Positions 31,341 through 39,337 of a DNA stretch of 52,818 nucleotides are shown piece after piece. The notes beneath the pieces were generated by a model. It was not told the DNA's origin and ran no database searches. It saw only the letters and a list, made by a program, of their open reading frames with translations. This DNA comes from Candidatus Daviesbacteria bacterium. GTDB taxonomy: Bacteria; Patescibacteriota; Microgenomatia; Daviesbacterales; UBA10151. The DNA lies in contig JACPEY010000033.1 of NCBI GenBank assembly GCA_016183245.1, forward strand, positions 1-52,818. Reading direction: 5' to 3'. Position 1 is the stretch's first letter. Each line of letters begins with the position of its first letter. The position numbers and the translations under genes are program-made.

Positions 31341-32143
31341 ATATCAAAATCCAGTAAAAGGGGCAGGTGGTCGGAGACGTCAGTGTCTAAAACTTTGAAG
31401 GAATTTATCTTTATACCTTTGCTTACTAAAATATAATCTACAACATTTCTTTCCAGATGATTTAGCTCATTAGTTTGCGGTCTGGTGGTTTTGATATGAT
31501 GTTCATCAACTAAGCTGATGAAATCTTTAAAGACCCTCATGGATTCTGTATCCGGAAATAAATTAAAATCCCCTGTAATTATGACCGGATAATCAACTTC
31601 TTTGGCCAGTTGATTAACCTTTTGACAAGCCTTTAAAGTATCTTTATTGCCAATTTTTTCCCTGGTCCAGATGCCGTGATAATTTATAACCCTTAACTTT
31701 TTTAAGTTTGGTAATTTAAAATCTACAACCTGTACTGCTTTGGATTCGGATTTTGGCCAGGTAGACCAGTCTAGAATCTGAATATTTTTATTGTCGGTGA
31801 TAAATATATTTATTTTTTTTAATATTTTAAATTTACTTTTAATATAATTTCCGGATTCTAAAAATCCCCCGAAATCAAAATCAAAATTTTCTTTTTGATG
31901 AAAATTCTTCCGGTGGAAATCGCGAATCTTACAGGTGGGGGCAAAAAAGGAATAACTTAATTTTTTAGTAGCTTTATCTATCAAATCTTTTGAGAGGTAA
32001 TTTGGATCAACTTCAGTATCAACTTTATCTGCAACTTCCTGCAAACAAACAATATCAGGATTTTGCTCAAGCAGGAATTTATATAACTGCTCATTATTGG
32101 TTTCAAACAAGGCAACATTTAATGAGATAAGTTGCATGTTCAT
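31337..32143 (-). CDS. Endonuclease/exonuclease/phosphatase (EEP) family protein
   Basis: N-terminal IVCLQEV, GDFNLFPD, and C-terminal SDHLPLLLDF motifs. Confidence 0.8.
   Translation of the reverse strand: MNMQLISLNVALFETNNEQLYKFLLEQNPDIVCLQEVADKVDTEVDPNYLSKDLIDKATKKLSYSFFAPTCKIRDFHRKNFHQKENFDFDFGGFLESGNYIKSKFKILKKINIFITDNKNIQILDWSTWPKSESKAVQVVDFKLPNLKKLRVINYHGIWTREKIGNKDTLKACQKVNQLAKEVDYPVIITGDFNLFPDTESMRVFKDFISLVDEHHIKTTRPQTNELNHLERNVVDYILVSKGIKINSFKVLDTDVSDHLPLLLDFDI
31344..31377. repeat. Direct repeat copy B (true 3' end of the EEP gene)
   Basis: TCAAAATCCAGTAAAAGGGGCAGGTGGTCGGAGA, encoding SDHLPLLLDFDI-stop on the minus strand. Confidence 0.9.
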
Positions 32144-32430
32144 TTGTATTCTTTGTGTGTTCCAGAATGTTTAGTGACGGCAAATAAAAGAATAATTTGC
32201 TTCTCTTCTGCATCAAAAGCCCAAATAATTCGTAAATCACCAGTCACCCAACTACTCCATTTTTCTCCGAAATTTCGTGTATTTACTTTATGACTTTTTA
32301 GTGAAGGATAGGCTGGATCGTTTTTCAGTAATCTCAATGCTTTCTCTATTCGTTTTTCAAGTTCCTGATTATCTTTAATTAGTGTTTTGTAGGTAGGAGC
32401 AAAGGTACTTGCGAAATGGAGAGCGTACAT
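32140..32430 (-). CDS. RelE/ParE-superfamily toxin
   Basis: 96 aa with the pattern LKSHKV...SSWVTGDLRIIW...ILLFAVTKH. 4-nt overlap with the EEP gene start. Confidence 0.65.
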   Translation of the reverse strand: MYALHFASTFAPTYKTLIKDNQELEKRIEKALRLLKNDPAYPSLKSHKVNTRNFGEKWSSWVTGDLRIIWAFDAEEKQIILLFAVTKHSGTHKEYK

Positions 32431-32432
32431 CT

Positions 32433-32690
32433 TTAAAGGCTCTTGAGATACGCATTAAGATCTTTATCTGTTCTGACTACAGTATATCGTCCGTTTTTGT
32501 AATCTTTTAAACCTTTTGCAATGAGCTTTTCAGTTGCTTCGTCTATGAGTGGAGCGCTTACCTCTTTTGAATACTTTTCAGCAAGAGCTACTTTTATAAT
32601 CTCAGCTTCGGACAATAGTAAGTACTTGCTTCTAAGATAAGCTAAAACTTCTGCTAGTTCCGGTGTTTTATTTAATCTAATCTGTGACAT
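32433..32690 (-). CDS. Putative antitoxin partnered with the RelE/ParE-like toxin
   Basis: 85 aa, immediately upstream of the toxin (2-nt gap). Assigned by position only. Confidence 0.5.
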   Translation of the reverse strand: MSQIRLNKTPELAEVLAYLRSKYLLLSEAEIIKVALAEKYSKEVSAPLIDEATEKLIAKGLKDYKNGRYTVVRTDKDLNAYLKSL

Positions 32691-35054: not shown

Positions 35055-35159
35055 GTGAATGAAGAATTTATTAAAAAGGTAATTGCATTAAGAGGAGATG
35101 AAGGGAAAAGGTGGTTAAATGATTTGCCAAAACGTTTGGGTTTTATGTTTCTCCGCTGA
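35055..35159 (+). pseudogene. Possible N-terminal remnant of an aminoglycoside/streptomycin-phosphotransferase-like kinase gene
   Basis: The GTG-initiated VNEEFIKKVIALRGDEGKRWLNDLPKRL resembles APH(6)-type N-termini. It then runs into antisense sequence of the next gene and stops. Confidence 0.25.
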
Positions 35160-35499
35160 TAATAGTCAATTTACCAAAAAGAGCGCGTTCGGAACTTCTG
35201 GTAAAAAGGGCCGTTAATTTTTTATCAATATCGTCTTCGCTTAGATTAGTGGAAACACCCACAATACCTGTAGTATTACTCAACTCTACAAACTCCACAA
35301 AATCTTTGACATTAAATGTTACGACTACCATATGATTTTTAGAAGCAAATTGAAATATTTGCCAATCAGACCAACCTTTACGTTCCGGATTTTGCAGAAC
35401 GTGTTTTACAGTAAACTTTTTGTTTAACCTGGGTAGATATGAACGCACGAAGAAATTTTCGTCAAGGAGAATTTTGTGCTTGAAAAATTTTACCTTCAT
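35143..35499 (-). CDS. DUF5615/Mut7-C-like PIN-fold putative toxin (second copy)
   Basis: ILLDENFF..., HMVVVTFNVKDF. Overlaps the upstream DUF433 gene. Confidence 0.6.
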   Translation of the reverse strand: MKVKFFKHKILLDENFFVRSYLPRLNKKFTVKHVLQNPERKGWSDWQIFQFASKNHMVVVTFNVKDFVEFVELSNTTGIVGVSTNLSEDDIDKKLTALFTRSSERALFGKLTIISGET

Positions 35500-35710
35500 C
35501 CTTATTAGTATCTATCTTGGTAGCTAGCTCCGCAATAGCTCCTTTGAATGCTTTTTTGGGAACCCATGGATAATGATCGTGAATCTCGTCGATTGTGTAC
35601 CCTTCAGAAACCATATACAAAATTCTCTCTATCGGTACACGGGTACCGGTGATAACCAGTGCCCCGCGCATAATATCTGGTTTAGATGAGATGTAAGATT
35701 GTTTTTTCAT
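35462..35710 (-). CDS. DUF433-family putative antitoxin (second copy)
   Basis: KPDIMRGALVITGTRVPIERILYMVSEGYTIDEIHDHYP. Confidence 0.8.
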   Translation of the reverse strand: MKKQSYISSKPDIMRGALVITGTRVPIERILYMVSEGYTIDEIHDHYPWVPKKAFKGAIAELATKIDTNKDEGKIFQAQNSP

Positions 35711-35792: not shown

Positions 35793-35822
35793 TTGACTTT
35801 CAGCCTTATAGTGTGGTAGAAT
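35793..35822 (+). promoter_or_regulatory. Putative sigma70-type promoter for the 710-aa gene
   Basis: TTGACT (35793-35798), an 18-nt spacer ending in TGG, then TAGAAT (35817-35822). The first ATG is only 9 nt downstream, so the transcript may be near-leaderless. Confidence 0.45.
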
Positions 35823-35831
35823 TTGCCATCT

Positions 35832-37955
35832 ATGGATACAGAAAGAAGAGCAGGAAGAGAAGTTTTGGTTCTTCCCGAGAGAACTTTGGTTTTATGGAGA
35901 GATCCTACTGAGCTATTGAGAGATAATCCTGCAGCCTTGATTATTAACAGGGTTTCCTACGATAGTATGGTAGCCTCTCCTTCAGAGGCCAGATATATGA
36001 GTTCGCCCCCTCATATTGCCAGAGTCAGAATATACACACCAAATGGTGAAGTTGAAACAGAGTTAATAATTGATGGATTAACCAGAACGAAATTTGCAGC
36101 TGATCATAAAGGTCAAATATTGCAGGCTGCTCCTAATATGAAATTCGATCAGATCCGCGTGGTTGATATCACTGATGATCTGTTAAAAGACGAGAGCATT
36201 GTTCCCGAAAAGGAACGCCAAAAGAATCAAACATCTCTTACCTTAATTCAGTATCTGCGAGCGGTGATACCGTGGACAGTTGAGCATCAGGCAATAGCAC
36301 CTGAAAGGATTGCAGGTCATTTGATTAACAGCTGGAGGGGGATGGTAGGTGATGATTTGGCAGCGAAATTTCCTGCACTGGCCGCACTTTCGTTTATCGC
36401 TAATCAAAATATAGATATTAGCACCGAGAGAGGATTTAGGAAATCCTTGGCAGAGCAGGAAAGATTTATAGTTGATGAGAAAAGCGAGGAAAAAGAGAGA
36501 CTGGAAAAGGCCCTTTGTGATATTGCAGAAATCATCCGAAAGTCGGGATTACTTAGAGGAATTGTAGCAGAGTCAGCATATTCTTTAATAGGAACAAAAT
36601 CTGCTGTAATCGGGGGATCAGAAGGAGCGCAAAAAGAAATATTCGGGCTGTTGCACTCCCATAGTTTTGAAAGTAAATTACGCAGGGAATATCTAAACCG
36701 CTTGGCTGAAGCGGAAAGGGTTAGAATTGAATTTTCCAGAGCTTTGCAGGAAACCTTTGCCAGGTTATCAGCAAGCTTACCTGGTAATGAGTCTGAACGC
36801 TCTGAGGCGAGGCGCGCTTTAAATGACATATCCTTAAATATTGAGCAAACTTTACAAATAATTACGGCTGGATCTCCAATGAAAAAATCTAATGAAATTA
36901 AAGTAGATTTAAATAGACAAATCTTAAAAAGATATTACCATGGGTTAACAAAAAAAGGAACTTTAACACAAGATGAGAAGATGCTGATTAATAATCTTGG
37001 TGGACATACCAACCTTGAAGAAACTAAATTGCCGGGGATGGCAGAGGATATCCGTACCGCAGCCACAATTTTGCGCCAAAGCCGGCAGTGGCAGGATAAC
37101 TTAAGAAACGGACTGGATAATATGGTCAATAGGGGAGTTGGTAAGGATACTATTGAACAAGCCTTAGCCTCAATGTCACAGAGACAGGAGACAGTTTTGT
37201 CAGCGGCTACTGAAGGTGCTCTTTCGGAGAGAGCAAGGTTATTGCAAAAAACCGTGGCAGAATTTCAGGAAAAGGTAGGCAGGGAAATACTGCAGTTTGA
37301 AATTGGACAAATTGTCGCTACTGTAATGGAAGAAGAGCTAAAAACTACTAAAGATCTGTATCTGCAGAAAAGGCTTGTGACAATAATAATTGAGGATCGC
37401 AATGTTGATGCCACTGATAAGGCAGCGGTTACAAGATGGATTCAAGGTTTTAGGGCGCTTGATGCACATGTTCAGAAAGAAGTATTACAAGGCAGTATAC
37501 CTATGGCCGCTGCAATCAGGATGCATAAGGTAAGGCAGAGCCTTGATAGACCCCCGGAAGCAAAACCCCCGGAGGCTGTACCTGTTCCTACCGTACCATT
37601 TCAGCTTATTGAAGACTATCCTCAAATCAGTCCGGAAGAGATCAAACACAGAAGAATTGAGAGAAATATTGAAAGATTACAAAGGGAAGTTATTGAAGCC
37701 CATCTTGAGCCGGCAATCAGAATTTTGGCTACACTGGATCTTGCTGCTGAAGAAGTGCCTCTTCCTGTAAAAAAGATTTTGGGGGATGCCGTAAGGATCA
37801 TTGAAAAACTACGATCCGGTCATCCGGATGTGGTTAGAGTGATGGACAAAGATTATAATAATCTTTTGGAAGAAACTGCGCGACTCAGAAGTATGATAGC
37901 AACTATACAAAGACAGCAGGCAGACCGCGATACCTATTCAGGTCAAAACAGTTAA
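35832..37955 (+). CDS. Large helical protein with a ParB/Srx-like N-terminal domain (tentative)
   Basis: First ATG at 35832. N-terminal ~110 aa show a ParB-N-like layout ending in ELIIDGLTRTKFAADHKG. The remainder is predicted alpha-helical, with a Pro-rich linker PPEAKPPEAVPVP. Confidence 0.5.
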   Translation: MDTERRAGREVLVLPERTLVLWRDPTELLRDNPAALIINRVSYDSMVASPSEARYMSSPPHIARVRIYTPNGEVETELIIDGLTRTKFAADHKGQILQAAPNMKFDQIRVVDITDDLLKDESIVPEKERQKNQTSLTLIQYLRAVIPWTVEHQAIAPERIAGHLINSWRGMVGDDLAAKFPALAALSFIANQNIDISTERGFRKSLAEQERFIVDEKSEEKERLEKALCDIAEIIRKSGLLRGIVAESAYSLIGTKSAVIGGSEGAQKEIFGLLHSHSFESKLRREYLNRLAEAERVRIEFSRALQETFARLSASLPGNESERSEARRALNDISLNIEQTLQIITAGSPMKKSNEIKVDLNRQILKRYYHGLTKKGTLTQDEKMLINNLGGHTNLEETKLPGMAEDIRTAATILRQSRQWQDNLRNGLDNMVNRGVGKDTIEQALASMSQRQETVLSAATEGALSERARLLQKTVAEFQEKVGREILQFEIGQIVATVMEEELKTTKDLYLQKRLVTIIIEDRNVDATDKAAVTRWIQGFRALDAHVQKEVLQGSIPMAAAIRMHKVRQSLDRPPEAKPPEAVPVPTVPFQLIEDYPQISPEEIKHRRIERNIERLQREVIEAHLEPAIRILATLDLAAEEVPLPVKKILGDAVRIIEKLRSGHPDVVRVMDKDYNNLLEETARLRSMIATIQRQQADRDTYSGQNS

Positions 37956-37984
37956 GTTTTTTATTCTTCAGGAGGATTTATCTT

Positions 37985-38995
37985 ATGTCACCAGAGGGAT
38001 TAAATAGAGGGGAAAAATTATTAGGATATGTTCAGGAAAGTATCCGGAGGCTTGAAGCAGGTGAAATTACTAGATTACCAACCGGTCAAGCTTTAGCTAA
38101 TCAATTTGGATATGAACAATATCCATCTGTATATTCACTACTTAAAAGGCATGGAATTAAATTGAGTCAATATGAAGTTCCTTTCAGACCTCCAGAACCA
38201 TCAGTAGATTTAGCGTGGTTTCTAGGAACTTTATCTAATGGGGGATATGTGCACAGCAACGGTAATATCCGAATGATGGGTGCTGATAGGAATGTACTGG
38301 AGAAATTTAGGTTACTAACAGATAGTTTATTCTCTTTAAATACATACGAGGATCACTCCGGTACTGGAAAAGAATTAGGGTATGCTTTTAATAGCAGAAA
38401 AGTAGCCAGATTTTTAGGAGATTTGAGGTCTGATGCCTGGGCTGGAACAATTTCGTCTACTCATCCCTGGGTAGTAATGAATCCCAGATATATTTGGGGT
38501 TTTGTAACAGGATTTTTTGACAGGATAGGAAAAGTAATCATTGATGAGGATAGAGGGCACTATATTGTTACATTACCAACTTCATCACAAGGAGGGGCAA
38601 GTCTGCTGGCCGAGATGCTGGTTCGGGTTGATATACGGAAACCAAGTATTCAGAATAAACTTGGAAAAACTAAAGATGTATCAATTTTTAACTTGATGGA
38701 TATAAGATTATTCGCTCAACACGTTCATTCTGTTGTTCCTGAGAAGGAAGCAAATTTGGAGTATTATCGAGAAAGGTTTCCAAAGAGGTTCAGAATTACA
38801 GAGGACAGTATGATTCAAGAATGGAAAGATATGAGTGAGGTACTTGGACATGCTCCTACTATGGTTGATATAGATGAATTCTATAAGGCAGGAAAGATTA
38901 CTACTTCATTGACAACTTTTAGGAGAAGATTTGGGAATGGGAGTTTTGTTAAAGCCAGAGAAGAGCTGGAAAGAATTATTAGGAACGGCCAGTAA
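37985..38995 (+). CDS. Free-standing double-motif LAGLIDADG-like protein with an N-terminal HTH-like region and a C-terminal homing-endonuclease-associated repeat
   Basis: AGGAGG SD at 37969-37974. Motif-like segments LAWFLGTLSNGGYV and IWGFVTGFFDRIGKV. C-terminal LGHAPTMVDIDEFYK...SLTTFRRRFGNGSFVKAREELE. Confidence 0.6.
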   Translation: MSPEGLNRGEKLLGYVQESIRRLEAGEITRLPTGQALANQFGYEQYPSVYSLLKRHGIKLSQYEVPFRPPEPSVDLAWFLGTLSNGGYVHSNGNIRMMGADRNVLEKFRLLTDSLFSLNTYEDHSGTGKELGYAFNSRKVARFLGDLRSDAWAGTISSTHPWVVMNPRYIWGFVTGFFDRIGKVIIDEDRGHYIVTLPTSSQGGASLLAEMLVRVDIRKPSIQNKLGKTKDVSIFNLMDIRLFAQHVHSVVPEKEANLEYYRERFPKRFRITEDSMIQEWKDMSEVLGHAPTMVDIDEFYKAGKITTSLTTFRRRFGNGSFVKAREELERIIRNGQ

Positions 38996-39130
38996 GGATT
39001 TAATAATAGATAAATATACAGGGCTGCAATAAGTTTGTCAGTTTACATTAATATTACGGCCGTAGTATTAATGTTTTTGCATTGCCGATGCCAGCCTTTG
39101 CAGGCAGATTTTCATGGTATAATTAGCTTT

Positions 39131-39337
39131 ATGGCAGCTATTGATTGGACTCATATCTATAAAAAATATAAAGGCCTGTGGGTGGCTTTGGAAAATGATG
39201 AGGTAACTGTTATTTCCGCTGGAAAAAGTTTGGAGGAAACATCCAAAAAGGCTGAAAAAAAAGGCTTTAAAGAACCCATTTTCTATTTTGTGCCAAAAAA
39301 AATGACATACTTTGTTGGTAAGATAACAAAAAAGTGA
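39131..39337 (+). CDS. DUF5678-like small protein
   Basis: MAAIDWTHIYKKYKGLWVALENDEVTVISAGKSLEE...KKGFKEPIFYFVP. Start moved to the ATG at 39131. Confidence 0.55.
   Translation: MAAIDWTHIYKKYKGLWVALENDEVTVISAGKSLEETSKKAEKKGFKEPIFYFVPKKMTYFVGKITKK

What the first reader, a model, noticed from the sequence alone, without database searches (positions are those of the whole stretch)
35793..38995. Two-gene module: ParB-N-like 710-aa helical protein followed by a LAGLIDADG-like protein whose catalytic acids appear lost
The 710-aa protein opens with a ~110-aa segment laid out like a ParB/Srx nuclease/NTPase domain (...ELIIDGLTRTKFAADHKG...). It continues with ~600 aa of helical sequence I cannot assign. 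The next gene lies 30 nt downstream behind an AGGAGG SD. It has an N-terminal HTH-like region, two LAGLIDADG-type helices and a C-terminal homing-endonuclease-associated repeat (SLTTFRRRFGNGSFVKAREELE). In both motifs the position of the catalytic Asp of the consensus ..D-G appears substituted (LSNGGY and FFDRIGK). This suggests a domesticated DNA-binding scaffold rather than an active homing nuclease. The pair is flanked by a DUF433/DUF5615 TA pair, a gene remnant and a DUF5678/retropepsin pair, which is accessory-island context. It is a candidate uncharacterised DNA-targeting or defence module.
Basis: inference. Interest (0 to 1): 0.7.

Follow-up and report, generated by a model that had tools for sequence, protein, structure and literature searches.

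The report
Dead homing-endonuclease and ParB-like regulator pair
This is a conserved two-gene operon of ultra-small Patescibacteria that pairs a homing-endonuclease fold with no catalytic acids with a large ParB-like protein; distant relatives of the large protein are fused to a sigma factor or a WhiB domain, so the pair most likely controls transcription rather than cutting DNA.

Summary
Both genes are real and form one operon, with a promoter at 35793-35822 and a terminator-like hairpin at 39045-39079.

**Gene B (336 aa).** It has a confidently predicted double LAGLIDADG fold. Both catalytic acid positions are non-acidic in about 30 domains from homologues. A winged HTH and a homing-endonuclease-associated repeat flank the core. 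This architecture resembles WhiA.

**Gene A (about 707 aa).** It has no significant match to any curated family. Its family has 154 clusters, and the consensus motif is DGHHR where the window has DGLTR. Weak best hits in three libraries all fall on ParB-superfamily members.

**Pairing.** In 10 of 11 distinct loci of the window's clade that were read, a B-family gene directly follows A, although the flanks are unrelated.

**Distant relatives of A.** Their contexts are:
- fused to a complete sigma-70, followed by two B genes;
- fused to a WhiB domain;
- placed between a B gene and a WhiB gene.

**Other results.** There were no hits to defence-system models or viral contigs. An 8-mer, CTTATAGT, inside the operon promoter recurs in 7 of 14 operon upstream regions.

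**Verdict.** The "domesticated scaffold" reading is supported. The "defence module" reading is not. The best explanation is a transcription-initiation regulator pair analogous to WhiA/WhiB or KorA/KorB (confidence about 0.45). It appears to be undescribed.

The parts
35793..35822 (+). Promoter of the operon: -35 TTGACT (35793-35798), an 18-nt spacer containing the conserved 8-mer CTTATAGT (35805-35812), then TG and -10 TAGAAT (35817-35822). The start codon lies 9 nt after the -10, so the mRNA is leaderless or nearly so.
   Evidence: Promoter scan, 10 of 12 matches with TG. The 8-mer recurs at the same place in the upstream regions of L003, L008, L009 and L015, with variants in L001 and L007. 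The composite motif occurs only once in the window.
35832..37955 (+). Gene A, about 707 aa (the ORF is open from TTG 35823). It is a large, mostly helical protein of an undescribed family.
35874..36197 (+). Gene A residues about 18-125: ParB/Srx-like N-terminal domain. It carries the NP motif (DNPAAL), the beta-beta hairpin ending in DGLTR (family consensus DGHHR), and the DIT strand.
   Evidence: The DSSP order beta-(NP loop)-alpha-beta-beta-alpha-beta-alpha is as in ParB, compared with the ParB topology from memory. Family consensus DGHHR. Weak hits on this stretch: 1vk1, E 1.9; hhalign register DGHHR on GERR; Pfam DUF1015, E 0.0076; phrog_1033 'ParB-like partition protein', E 0.007.
36225..37112 (+). 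Gene A residues about 135-430: helical core conserved across the whole family, with R162 and W171 invariant. Distant relatives share this part with the window protein.
   Evidence: Model pLDDT is 80-95 here. There is no structural neighbour in the PDB or BFVD.
37113..37955 (+). Gene A residues 431-710: C-terminal region largely specific to the window's clade (a distant relative matches only its first ~120 positions, E 1e-9). It has a low-confidence proline-rich linker (576-601), long helices (604-707) and a conserved tail, DRDTY/R-x-G. In distant relatives a sigma-70 or a WhiB domain takes its place.
37970..37975 (+). Shine-Dalgarno AGGAGG of gene B, 9 nt before the ATG.
37985..38995 (+). Gene B, 336 aa: winged HTH, then a catalytically dead double LAGLIDADG core, then a homing-endonuclease-associated repeat.
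37985..38173 (+). Gene B residues 1-63: N-terminal helix plus a GntR/LexA-like winged HTH. This module is repeated two or three times in some homologues.
   Evidence: NanR hit, E 0.02. Repeated domains in the L001 and L008 proteins.
38216..38245 (+). First LAGLIDADG motif, WFLGTLSNGG. The catalytic position is G87.
38495..38530 (+). Second LAGLIDADG motif, WGFVTGFFDRIG. The catalytic position is I181.
38795..38992 (+). Gene B residues 271-336: C-terminal helical module matching Pfam HNH_repeat (PF18780).
   Evidence: E 7.5e-4, below the gathering score. Precomputed PF18780 hits on homologues.
39045..39079 (+). 13-bp hairpin (ACATTAATATTAC/GTAGTATTAATGT) followed by TTTTT. It is the likely terminator of the operon.
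   Evidence: fold -15.1 kcal/mol, z = -2.0

Best explanation
Genes A and B form an autonomous operon that encodes a two-component regulator of transcription initiation.

**Gene B.** B is a pseudo-nuclease. Its LAGLIDADG saddle, its N-terminal winged HTH and its C-terminal helical repeat together give sequence-specific DNA binding, as in WhiA.

**Gene A.** A is a scaffold. Its N-terminal ParB/Srx-fold domain probably binds a nucleotide, because the Gly-x-x-Arg of the motif is kept while the two His residues of the family consensus are not. Its conserved helical core is the part that works with RNA polymerase holoenzyme.

**How the link to the polymerase is made.** In distant relatives the link is explicit: the core is fused to a full sigma-70, fused to a sigma-binding WhiB domain, or encoded next to a WhiB gene. 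In the window's clade the C-terminal helical region would supply the link.

**Proposed action.** B recruits or positions A at target promoters, probably including the operon's own promoter, which carries a conserved 8-mer. A then modulates initiation.

**Shown versus inferred.** Shown: the folds, the loss of catalytic residues, the gene pairing, the fusions and the conserved promoter motif. Inferred: the A-B contact, the contact with sigma or RNA polymerase, nucleotide binding, and the direction of regulation.
For: **Pairing.**
- A is directly followed by one to three B-family genes or domains in the window, L001, L003, L004, L005, L006, L007, L008, L009 and L019.
- A identity among these loci is as low as about 30%, and the flanks are unrelated.
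- Matching contig lengths suggest four more A/B pairs.

**Distant A relatives.**
- P0172/P0069: the A core at residues 6-419 (E 4e-113) plus sigma-70 regions r2, r3 and r4, followed by two B genes.
- L015: a fused double B gene, then an A-like gene, then a gene for a 421-aa WhiB-domain protein (WhiB E 7e-20).
- L013: a B gene followed by an A-like gene.
- Five A-WhiB fusions that look like several subclades.
- L004 has a sigma-like gene beside the module.

**Gene B resembles WhiA.**
- The Foldseek hits include full-length WhiA (3hyi, E 1.2e-6) and WhiA in the RNAP-WhiB complex (8dy9_I).
- No homologue has a catalytic acid.

**Established precedents.**
- ParB-fold proteins regulate transcription: KorB with KorA (PMC11790492) and BisD (PMC12409273).
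- ParB-fold-Sigma70 fusions exist and bind ATP (PMC12704722).

**Promoter motif.** CT(T/C)ATA(G/A)T lies in the promoter of 7 of 14 operon upstream regions. One of them is L015, where the first gene of the operon is the B-like one.
Against: - The window's A protein has no sigma or WhiB domain, and the window has no WhiB-like gene. The link to the transcription machinery rests on relatives with 15-25% identity.
- Gene B is no closer to WhiA than to true endonucleases, and it does not match the WhiA Pfam families.
- No interaction was tested.
- One close A homologue (L018) has no B gene beside it. The A-WhiB fusions also lack a neighbouring B gene.
- The ParB assignment is statistically weak.
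- The promoter 8-mer contains a -10-like TATAGT, so part of its recurrence could be ordinary promoter sequence.
Confidence: 0.45

Rival explanations
1. A is a ParB-like DNA clamp or partition and organisation system. It is a nucleotide-gated clamp with an N-terminal gate, a middle domain and a C-terminal dimerisation helix. B is its sequence-specific loader or centromere-binding adaptor. The pair would act in maintenance or segregation of a chromosome region or mobile element, not in transcription.
For: - The N-terminal domain of A is ParB/Srx-like.
- A has long C-terminal helices.
- One relative sits in an ICE-like region with type IV secretion genes and a serine recombinase.
- Toxin-antitoxin pairs lie beside the module in three loci.
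Against: - A lacks the ParB CTP boxes (GERRxR, ENLQR).
- No ParA-like gene was listed among the annotated neighbours of the loci whose genes were listed.
- The sigma-70 and WhiB fusions are not expected of a segregation clamp.
- In most loci the flanking genes that were annotated are chromosomal housekeeping genes.
Confidence: 0.15
2. The pair is an anti-phage or anti-plasmid defence or DNA-targeting module. B recognises foreign or modified DNA, and A acts as effector or sensor through a ParB/Srx-type nuclease or NTPase domain, as in GmrS (DUF262) or DndB.
For: - ParB/Srx domains occur in GmrSD and Dnd systems (PMC4619093, PMC12704722).
- B genes are duplicated and vary in number between loci.
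- Toxin-antitoxin and mobile-element genes lie nearby in several loci.
Against: - Neither protein hits PADLOC models.
- No nuclease or other effector domain was detected, and B lacks the acidic residue at both catalytic positions.
- The window clade has replaced both His residues of DGHHR.
- The fusions point to sigma and WhiB.
- No known defence genes appear among the annotated neighbours that were listed.
Confidence: 0.1
3. B is a free-standing selfish homing endonuclease that still cuts DNA with non-canonical residues, and A is cargo or a helper that moves with it.
For: - NCBI annotates a homologue as 'LAGLIDADG family homing endonuclease'.
- The module sits in different genomic neighbourhoods.
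- The family is sporadic: five hits among the 185,579 species genomes scanned with peptide patterns, which detect close relatives only.
Against: - Both metal-binding acids are absent in all ~30 LAGLIDADG domains examined, over about 30% sequence identity. This indicates purifying selection on a non-catalytic protein.
- B is not inside an intron or an intein.
- No repeats indicative of insertion ends were seen around the module.
- A and B appear to diverge in parallel: both are about 30% identical between distant loci.
Confidence: 0.05

Closest known systems
WhiA-WhiB transcription activators of Actinobacteria (PMC10243135, PMC3240954)
   Same: - WhiA is a double LAGLIDADG fold without catalytic residues, joined to an HTH DNA-binding domain.
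- It works with a partner (WhiB) that docks on sigma region 4.
- Gene B has the same kind of architecture, and Foldseek matches full-length WhiA.
- Relatives of A are fused to WhiB or sigma-70, or sit between a B gene and a WhiB gene.
   Different: - B matches none of the WhiA Pfam families.
- B has an extra N-terminal winged HTH, and a C-terminal HNH_repeat in place of HTH_WhiA.
- The partner A is a 700-aa ParB-like helical protein, not an ~85-aa Fe-S protein. It has one Cys and no WhiB domain.
- The hosts are Patescibacteria, not Actinobacteria.
KorB-KorA of plasmid RK2 and BisD of ICEclc: ParB-fold proteins that regulate transcription (PMC11790492, PMC12409273)
   Same: - A ParB-fold protein acts with a small sequence-specific DNA-binding partner to control promoters.
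- These systems are often carried on mobile elements.
- One relative of the module lies in an ICE-like context.
   Different: - KorB and BisD are true ParB-family CTPases with GERRxR, their own HTH, and DNA sliding.
- A lacks these motifs and does not reach any ParB model's threshold.
- KorA is a small HTH protein, not a LAGLIDADG fold.
ParB-CTPase-fold-Sigma70 fusions surveyed by Kaljevic et al. 2025 (PMC12704722)
   Same: - A ParB-fold domain is joined to a sigma-70 domain, and ATP binding was shown for one such protein.
- P0172 of the A family has the same kind of architecture.
   Different: - Their fusion carries the motif GEHRVRA. The A family has DG(H/N/L)(H/T)R, and its long helical core is not mentioned in that paper.
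- The terms LAGLIDADG, WhiB and Patescibacteria are absent from the paper and from its supplements held as text.
Non-catalytic LAGLIDADG proteins such as intron maturases (bI3 maturase, PDB 2ab5)
   Same: A LAGLIDADG fold is kept as a nucleic-acid-binding scaffold after loss of endonuclease activity. 2ab5 is among the Foldseek hits.
   Different: Maturases are intron-encoded and bind RNA. B is free-standing, flanked by DNA-binding HTH modules, and always partnered with A.

Membership tests
Active LAGLIDADG homing endonuclease | Two alpha-beta-beta-alpha-beta-beta-alpha halves packed through two LAGLIDADG helices | tested here: met
   Model pLDDT 86.9 with the expected order of secondary-structure elements. 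Foldseek probability 1.00 to the TliVMA intein endonuclease, I-Tsp061I, I-DmoI and PI-SceI. Profile hit to 7qsu, E 0.005.
Active LAGLIDADG homing endonuclease | An acidic residue (Asp or Glu) at the C-terminal end of each LAGLIDADG helix, just before the final Gly | tested here: not met
   G87 and I181 align with the catalytic Asp residues of TliVMA. In about 30 LAGLIDADG domains of homologues the positions are G/R/K/S and R/K/S/I/G, never D or E.
Active LAGLIDADG homing endonuclease | Located in an intron or intein, or free-standing with a recognisable homing site | tested here: not met
   B is a separate gene with its own Shine-Dalgarno sequence. It lies next to gene A in different neighbourhoods, and there are no flanking repeats.
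WhiA (DUF199) | Degenerate double LAGLIDADG domain without catalytic residues, used for DNA and protein contacts | tested here: met
   This is a structural resemblance only.
WhiA (DUF199) | Sequence membership: Pfam WhiA_N, LAGLIDADG_WhiA and the C-terminal HTH_WhiA domain | tested here: not met
   A Pfam scan at E up to 10 lists only HNH_repeat and LAGLIDADG_3.
WhiA (DUF199) | Acts together with WhiB on the sigma-A holoenzyme | tested here: inconclusive
   There is no WhiB gene in the window. A WhiB-domain gene or fusion accompanies distant relatives of the partner protein A.
ParB/Srx (ParB-CTPase fold) superfamily | Core fold with the order beta, NP-type loop, alpha, beta-beta hairpin ending in a G-x-x-R motif, alpha, beta | tested here: inconclusive
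   The order of elements in the model fits, compared with the ParB topology from memory. The family consensus is DGHHR. The best weak hits are ParB-type: PDB 1vk1, E 1.9; Pfam DUF1015, E 0.0076, which I recall belongs to the ParB clan; phrog_1033 'ParB-like partition protein', E 0.007. hhalign puts DGHHR on GERR, but with probability 2.6%. Foldseek with the full-length model gives nothing significant.
ParB sensu stricto (CTP-dependent clamp) | CTP-binding boxes GERRxR and ENLQR, a parS-type HTH, and Pfam ParBc | tested here: not met
   No ParBc hit in the window protein or in 62 family members. The motifs are absent from the alignment.
Known anti-phage defence systems (PADLOC-DB) | A match of either protein to a defence-system model | tested here: not met
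   Zero families at E up to 1.
WhiB-like (Wbl) proteins / sigma-70 factors | A four-Cys Fe-S WhiB domain, or sigma regions 2-4, in the window's protein A | tested here: not met
   No Pfam hit and only one Cys in A. These domains occur only in distant relatives.

The most novel reading that the evidence does not exclude
Patescibacteria have a previously unrecognised sigma-linked system for controlling transcription initiation. A nucleotide-binding ParB/Srx-fold scaffold (A) and a dead LAGLIDADG DNA-binding protein (B) take roles comparable to WhiB and WhiA. The same scaffold has been joined repeatedly to WhiB domains or to sigma-70 itself. This would extend WhiA/WhiB-type logic, and WhiB domains, beyond Actinobacteria. 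It would also add a new output to the ParB fold.
Probability: 0.35. Interest if true: 0.8.

Novelty: new variant of a known kind. Interest (0 to 1): 0.62.

Why it matters
- Regulation in Patescibacteria, a very large and almost uncultivated part of the bacterial tree, is largely unknown. A conserved, self-contained regulator pair gives a concrete handle on it.
- It would be a second, independent case, after WhiA, of a homing-endonuclease fold recruited as a transcription factor.
- It would be a new kind of partner and output for the ParB/Srx nucleotide-switch fold.
- The associated WhiB domains sit in low-GC contigs that do not look actinobacterial. This questions the view that Wbl proteins are confined to Actinobacteria.
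- In practice, database entries that call these proteins "LAGLIDADG family homing endonuclease" are probably wrong about activity.

Tried and rejected
**Direct searches with protein A that gave nothing.**
- Pfam, NCBIfam, PHROGs and PADLOC.
- PDB sequences.
- Foldseek with the full-length A model against the PDB and BFVD returned only insignificant matches to long helical proteins. A phage ParB-family protein was at rank 20 with E 1.2.

**Searches that were unproductive.**
- The third word-indexed homologue search, run with the broad alignment, found nothing new.

**Comparisons that showed no relationship.**
- The sigma-like gene next to the module in L004 is unrelated in sequence to the sigma part of P0172.
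- The C-terminal third of the window's A has only a partial match outside its clade (L015, E 1e-9 over ~120 positions) and no match to WhiB-carrying proteins.

**Taxonomy.**
- Taxonomy of the WhiB-bearing contigs could not be settled. Cluster look-ups gave no named members.
- The SecA of L010 is equidistant from the reference SecA proteins.

**Other negative results.**
- There are no tRNA or Rfam features in the window.
- Repeats around the module look like chance, apart from the hairpin after gene B.

**Rejected readings.**
- An ordinary free-standing homing endonuclease, because the catalytic acids are absent throughout the family.
- Canonical ParB, because the motifs are absent.


Full report
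**1. What is in the window**

Two same-strand ORFs occupy the reported interval: 35823-37955 (710 aa counted from a TTG) and 37985-38995 (336 aa). I call them gene A and gene B. Homologues of A begin at the position of the ATG at 35832 (MDTERRAGREVLVLPE against MNEERKAGREVLVLPE), so A is probably 707 aa.

The -10 ends 9 nt before the ATG, so the mRNA is leaderless or nearly so.

The genes are 29 nt apart, with AGGAGG 9 nt before the ATG of B. A 13-bp hairpin followed by TTTTT lies fifty nucleotides after the stop of B, at 39045-39079. It folds at -15.1 kcal/mol and looks like the operon terminator.

- DUF433 (E 5e-14) with DUF5615 (E 6e-14) upstream, divergent from A;
- DUF5678 (E 5e-9) with an aspartyl-protease fold downstream.

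The window's composition is about 0.39 GC, and the module is not clearly different (0.38-0.43). There are no tRNA or Rfam features.

**2. Gene B is a LAGLIDADG fold that lacks both catalytic acids**

*Fold.*
- Pfam gives only sub-threshold hits for the window protein: HNH_repeat at E 7.5e-4 and LAGLIDADG_3 at E 5.5e-3.
- A model built on 14 homologues is confident (pLDDT 86.9). It shows two alpha-beta-beta-alpha-beta-beta-alpha halves between an N-terminal helical module and a C-terminal helical module.
- Foldseek against the PDB gives 60 matches at E <= 0.001; the 50 listed all have probability 1.00.
- The matches include the TliVMA intein endonuclease (4e-7), I-Tsp061I, full-length WhiA 3hyi (1.2e-6), WhiA in the RNAP-WhiB complex 8dy9, I-DmoI, PI-SceI and the bI3 maturase.

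*Catalytic positions.*
- A profile of the family finds the TliVMA endonuclease domain by sequence alone (E 0.005).
- That alignment places LGYLIADG opposite LGvlSaGG, and FINAYIVCDG opposite FinGffdkrG. The two catalytic Asp residues therefore face G87 and I181 of the window protein.
- In about 30 LAGLIDADG domains from homologues, some very distant, the first position is G/R/K/S and the second is R/K/S/I/G. Neither is ever acidic.
- Sequences about 30% identical keep the fold but never the acids. This is the signature of a selected non-catalytic protein, not of a decaying nuclease.

*Flanking modules.*
- The N-terminal module gives a weak match (E 0.021) to the GntR-type winged HTH of NanR. 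It is present two or three times in some homologues.
- The C-terminal module is the homing-endonuclease-associated repeat.
- Gene B therefore has three putative DNA-binding modules and no active site.

**3. Gene A**

*Direct searches.*
- No curated library matches it, and no PDB sequence does.
- The model is reasonable (pLDDT 77.8, and above 85 for residues 170-500). It is almost all helical after residue 135, and it has no significant structural neighbour in the PDB or BFVD.

*The family.*
- An exhaustive profile search finds 154 clusters at 50% identity.
- What they share is roughly residues 15-430.
- In a 62-member alignment the motif that reads DGLTR in the window has the consensus DGHHR. 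D, G and R are nearly or fully invariant.

*Fit to the ParB/Srx fold.* In the model the order of elements in residues 13-122 is strand, NP-containing loop, short helices, a beta hairpin ending in the motif, helix, strand, helix. This is the order found in the ParB/Srx N-terminal domain, judged from my knowledge of ParB structures.

*Weak hits on the motif stretch.* All four fall on ParB-superfamily members:

| Library | Hit | Score |
|---|---|---|
| PDB sequences | 1vk1, which I recall as a ParB/Srx-like protein (deposited as "Conserved hypothetical protein") | E 1.9; second of only two matches at E <= 10 among 177,635 sequences |
| Pfam | DUF1015, which I recall belongs to the ParB clan | E 0.0076, best hit of the family consensus |
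| PHROGs | phrog_1033, "ParB-like partition protein" | E 0.007, best hit of the family consensus |
| hhalign against three ParB sequences | DGHHR aligned on GERR | probability 2.6% |

I conclude that a ParB/Srx fold is likely but not proven. A is not a canonical ParB, because it lacks GERRxR, ENLQR and any ParBc hit. The window's clade has replaced both His residues, so its ligand or chemistry may differ from that of its relatives.

**4. The pair is conserved**

- In the window's clade, one to three B-family genes or fused B domains directly follow A in the window, L001, L003, L004, L005, L006, L007, L008, L009 and L019.
- A proteins from these loci are as little as 30% identical.
- Matching contig lengths suggest four more pairs.
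- Apart from the related pair L007/L009, genes flanking the module are not shared between loci. Where scanned they are often housekeeping: a tRNA synthetase, ribosomal protein S6, RuvA and dCTP deaminase.
- One close homologue of A (L018) has no B gene beside it.
- The genomes are Levybacteria and other Patescibacteria MAGs.
- No relatives were found in IMG/VR viral contigs.

**5. What distant relatives of A are joined to**

This is the most informative result.

- **Sigma fusion.** P0172 (1048 aa, the same cluster as P0069) has the A core at residues 6-419 (E 4e-113), followed by sigma-70 regions 2, 3 and 4 and a further LuxR-type HTH. Two B-family genes follow it. The locus also carries a type IV secretion pilin, a TrwB-like coupling protein and a serine recombinase.
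- **WhiB fusions.** Five members have a C-terminal WhiB domain, with E down to 9e-16. By sequence they look like several subclades of the family.
- **WhiB neighbour.** In L015 the gene order is a fused double B gene, an A-like gene, then a gene for a 421-aa protein ending in a WhiB domain (E 7e-20).
- **Reversed order.** In L013 a B gene precedes an A-like gene. NCBI calls these proteins "LAGLIDADG family homing endonuclease" and "hypothetical protein".
- **Sigma-like neighbour.** In L004, a close relative of the window locus, a sigma-like gene lies next to the module. It is unrelated in sequence to the sigma part of P0172.

WhiB-type proteins bind region 4 of the principal sigma factor. [quoted passage not shown] The A core is thus found repeatedly with sigma, with a sigma-binding domain, and with a WhiA-like protein.

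**6. A conserved DNA element**

- The 8-mer CTTATAGT lies in the spacer of the window's promoter, at 35805-35812.
- The same 8-mer, or a one-base variant, lies 17-24 nt before the first start codon of the operon in L003, L008, L009, L015, L001 and L007. That is 7 of the 14 upstream regions examined.
- In L015 it precedes the B-like gene that opens the operon.
- In the window the 8-mer alone occurs three times, about as often as chance predicts. The composite with the -10 occurs only at this promoter.
- At 30% protein identity, non-coding conservation implies function. An operator for autoregulation is the simplest reading.
- One caveat: the motif contains a -10-like TATAGT.

**7. Interpretation**

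The best-supported model is a two-protein regulator of transcription initiation. B is the sequence-specific DNA-binding subunit, a pseudo-nuclease like WhiA. A is a scaffold with a probably nucleotide-binding ParB/Srx-fold head. In relatives the conserved core of A is wired to the holoenzyme by fusion to sigma or WhiB. In the window's clade the wiring would go through the largely clade-specific C-terminal helical region.

Precedents for ParB-fold proteins in transcription control:
- KorB with KorA (PMC11790492);
- BisD (PMC12409273);
- ATP-binding ParB-fold-Sigma70 fusions (PMC12704722). Those carry a different motif, GEHRVRA, and are not this family.

The folds, the loss of catalytic residues, the gene linkage, the fusions and the promoter motif are shown. 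Every physical interaction and the regulatory output are inferred. I put this model at about 0.45.

Rivals:
- a ParB-like clamp or segregation system with B as loader (0.15);
- a defence module (0.10), with no PADLOC hit, no effector domain and no defence neighbours among the annotated genes listed;
- a still-active selfish endonuclease (0.05), contradicted by the family-wide absence of the acids.

**8. Novelty**

- No paper in the held library holds WhiB or ParB-like together with LAGLIDADG except WhiA/WhiB and GmrSD papers, none holds both WhiA and Patescibacteria, and WhiB with Patescibacteria-type terms gave no relevant paper among the 12 listed.
- The pair is best described as a new variant of known kinds: a domesticated LAGLIDADG factor and a ParB-fold regulator, in an undescribed combination and lineage.
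- Wbl proteins are described as exclusive to Actinobacteria (PMC6282962). Here WhiB domains occur on contigs of 0.37-0.41 GC, and the SecA of one such contig is equidistant from the Mycobacterium, E. coli, Bacillus and Thermotoga SecA proteins.
- The taxonomy of those contigs remains to be confirmed.

Noticed in passing
window 35143-35710; L001 3010-3658; L008 5517-6235: A PIN-type toxin-antitoxin pair lies immediately upstream of gene A and divergent from it in three otherwise unrelated loci. The pairs are DUF5615/DUF433, PIN/MazE and PIN/RHH. This could be chance in toxin-antitoxin-rich genomes, or a real linkage such as shared divergent promoter regions.
   Followed up: partly
window 35805-35812; L003 52-59; L008 6280-6287; L009 3517-3524; L015 4712-4719; variants in L001 and L007: The 8-mer CT(T/C)ATA(G/A)T is embedded in the operon promoter, 17-24 nt before the first start codon, in 7 of 14 operon upstream regions whose proteins are only about 30% identical. 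It is a candidate operator, but its binding factor is unknown.
   Followed up: partly
window 39045-39079 and 39098-39133: A 13-bp A/T-rich hairpin with a T-run follows gene B. The consensus terminator scan missed it. The DUF5678 gene probably starts at ATG 39131, behind its own TG-extended -10 (TATAAT), again about 9 nt before the start. Near-leaderless promoters may therefore be common in this genome.
   Followed up: partly
L010 8001-10277; L014 1280-3214; L015 10014-11279: WhiB domains (Pfam PF02467, E down to 7e-20) occur on contigs of 0.37-0.41 GC. The SecA of L010 is no closer to Mycobacterium SecA than to E. coli, Bacillus or Thermotoga SecA. WhiB-like proteins are described as restricted to Actinobacteria.
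   Followed up: partly
L011 1-12219 (also L012, L021): The A-sigma-70 fusion and its two B genes lie between a TrbC/T4SS pilin gene and genes for a TrwB-like coupling protein and a serine recombinase. This looks like an integrative conjugative element of Patescibacteria.
   Followed up: no
L023 2741-4438 and 5001-7361: Two A-family paralogues (565 and 786 aa, motifs DGYHR and DGNHR) are encoded about 500 nt apart on the same strand. No B gene is nearby.
   Followed up: no
L022 2263-4956: An 897-aa protein made of many short HTH-like repeats, with no LAGLIDADG and no Pfam hit, directly precedes an A-family gene (P0148). It may be an alternative DNA-binding partner.
   Followed up: no
L007, L009 (CAYMDS010000011.1, CAZNVI010000025.1): Two MAG contigs labelled 'uncultured Gammaproteobacteria' carry the Patescibacteria-type A-B module at 0.38 GC. 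The taxonomic labels may be binning or labelling errors.
   Followed up: no
L013 13430-13801 and 16387-16868; L014 3433-4461; L005 7091-7945: Mobile-element genes lie within a few kb of several modules: an IS1595 transposase, an rve integrase, a tyrosine integrase and a Bro-N protein. No integrase or transposase was looked for in the window, where only six flanking ORFs were scanned against Pfam.
   Followed up: no
window 32140-32690: Two small overlapping minus-strand ORFs (96 and 85 aa) between the endonuclease/exonuclease/phosphatase-like gene and the adenosylhomocysteinase-like gene look like another toxin-antitoxin pair. This is judged from the sequence only and was not scanned against Pfam.
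   Followed up: no
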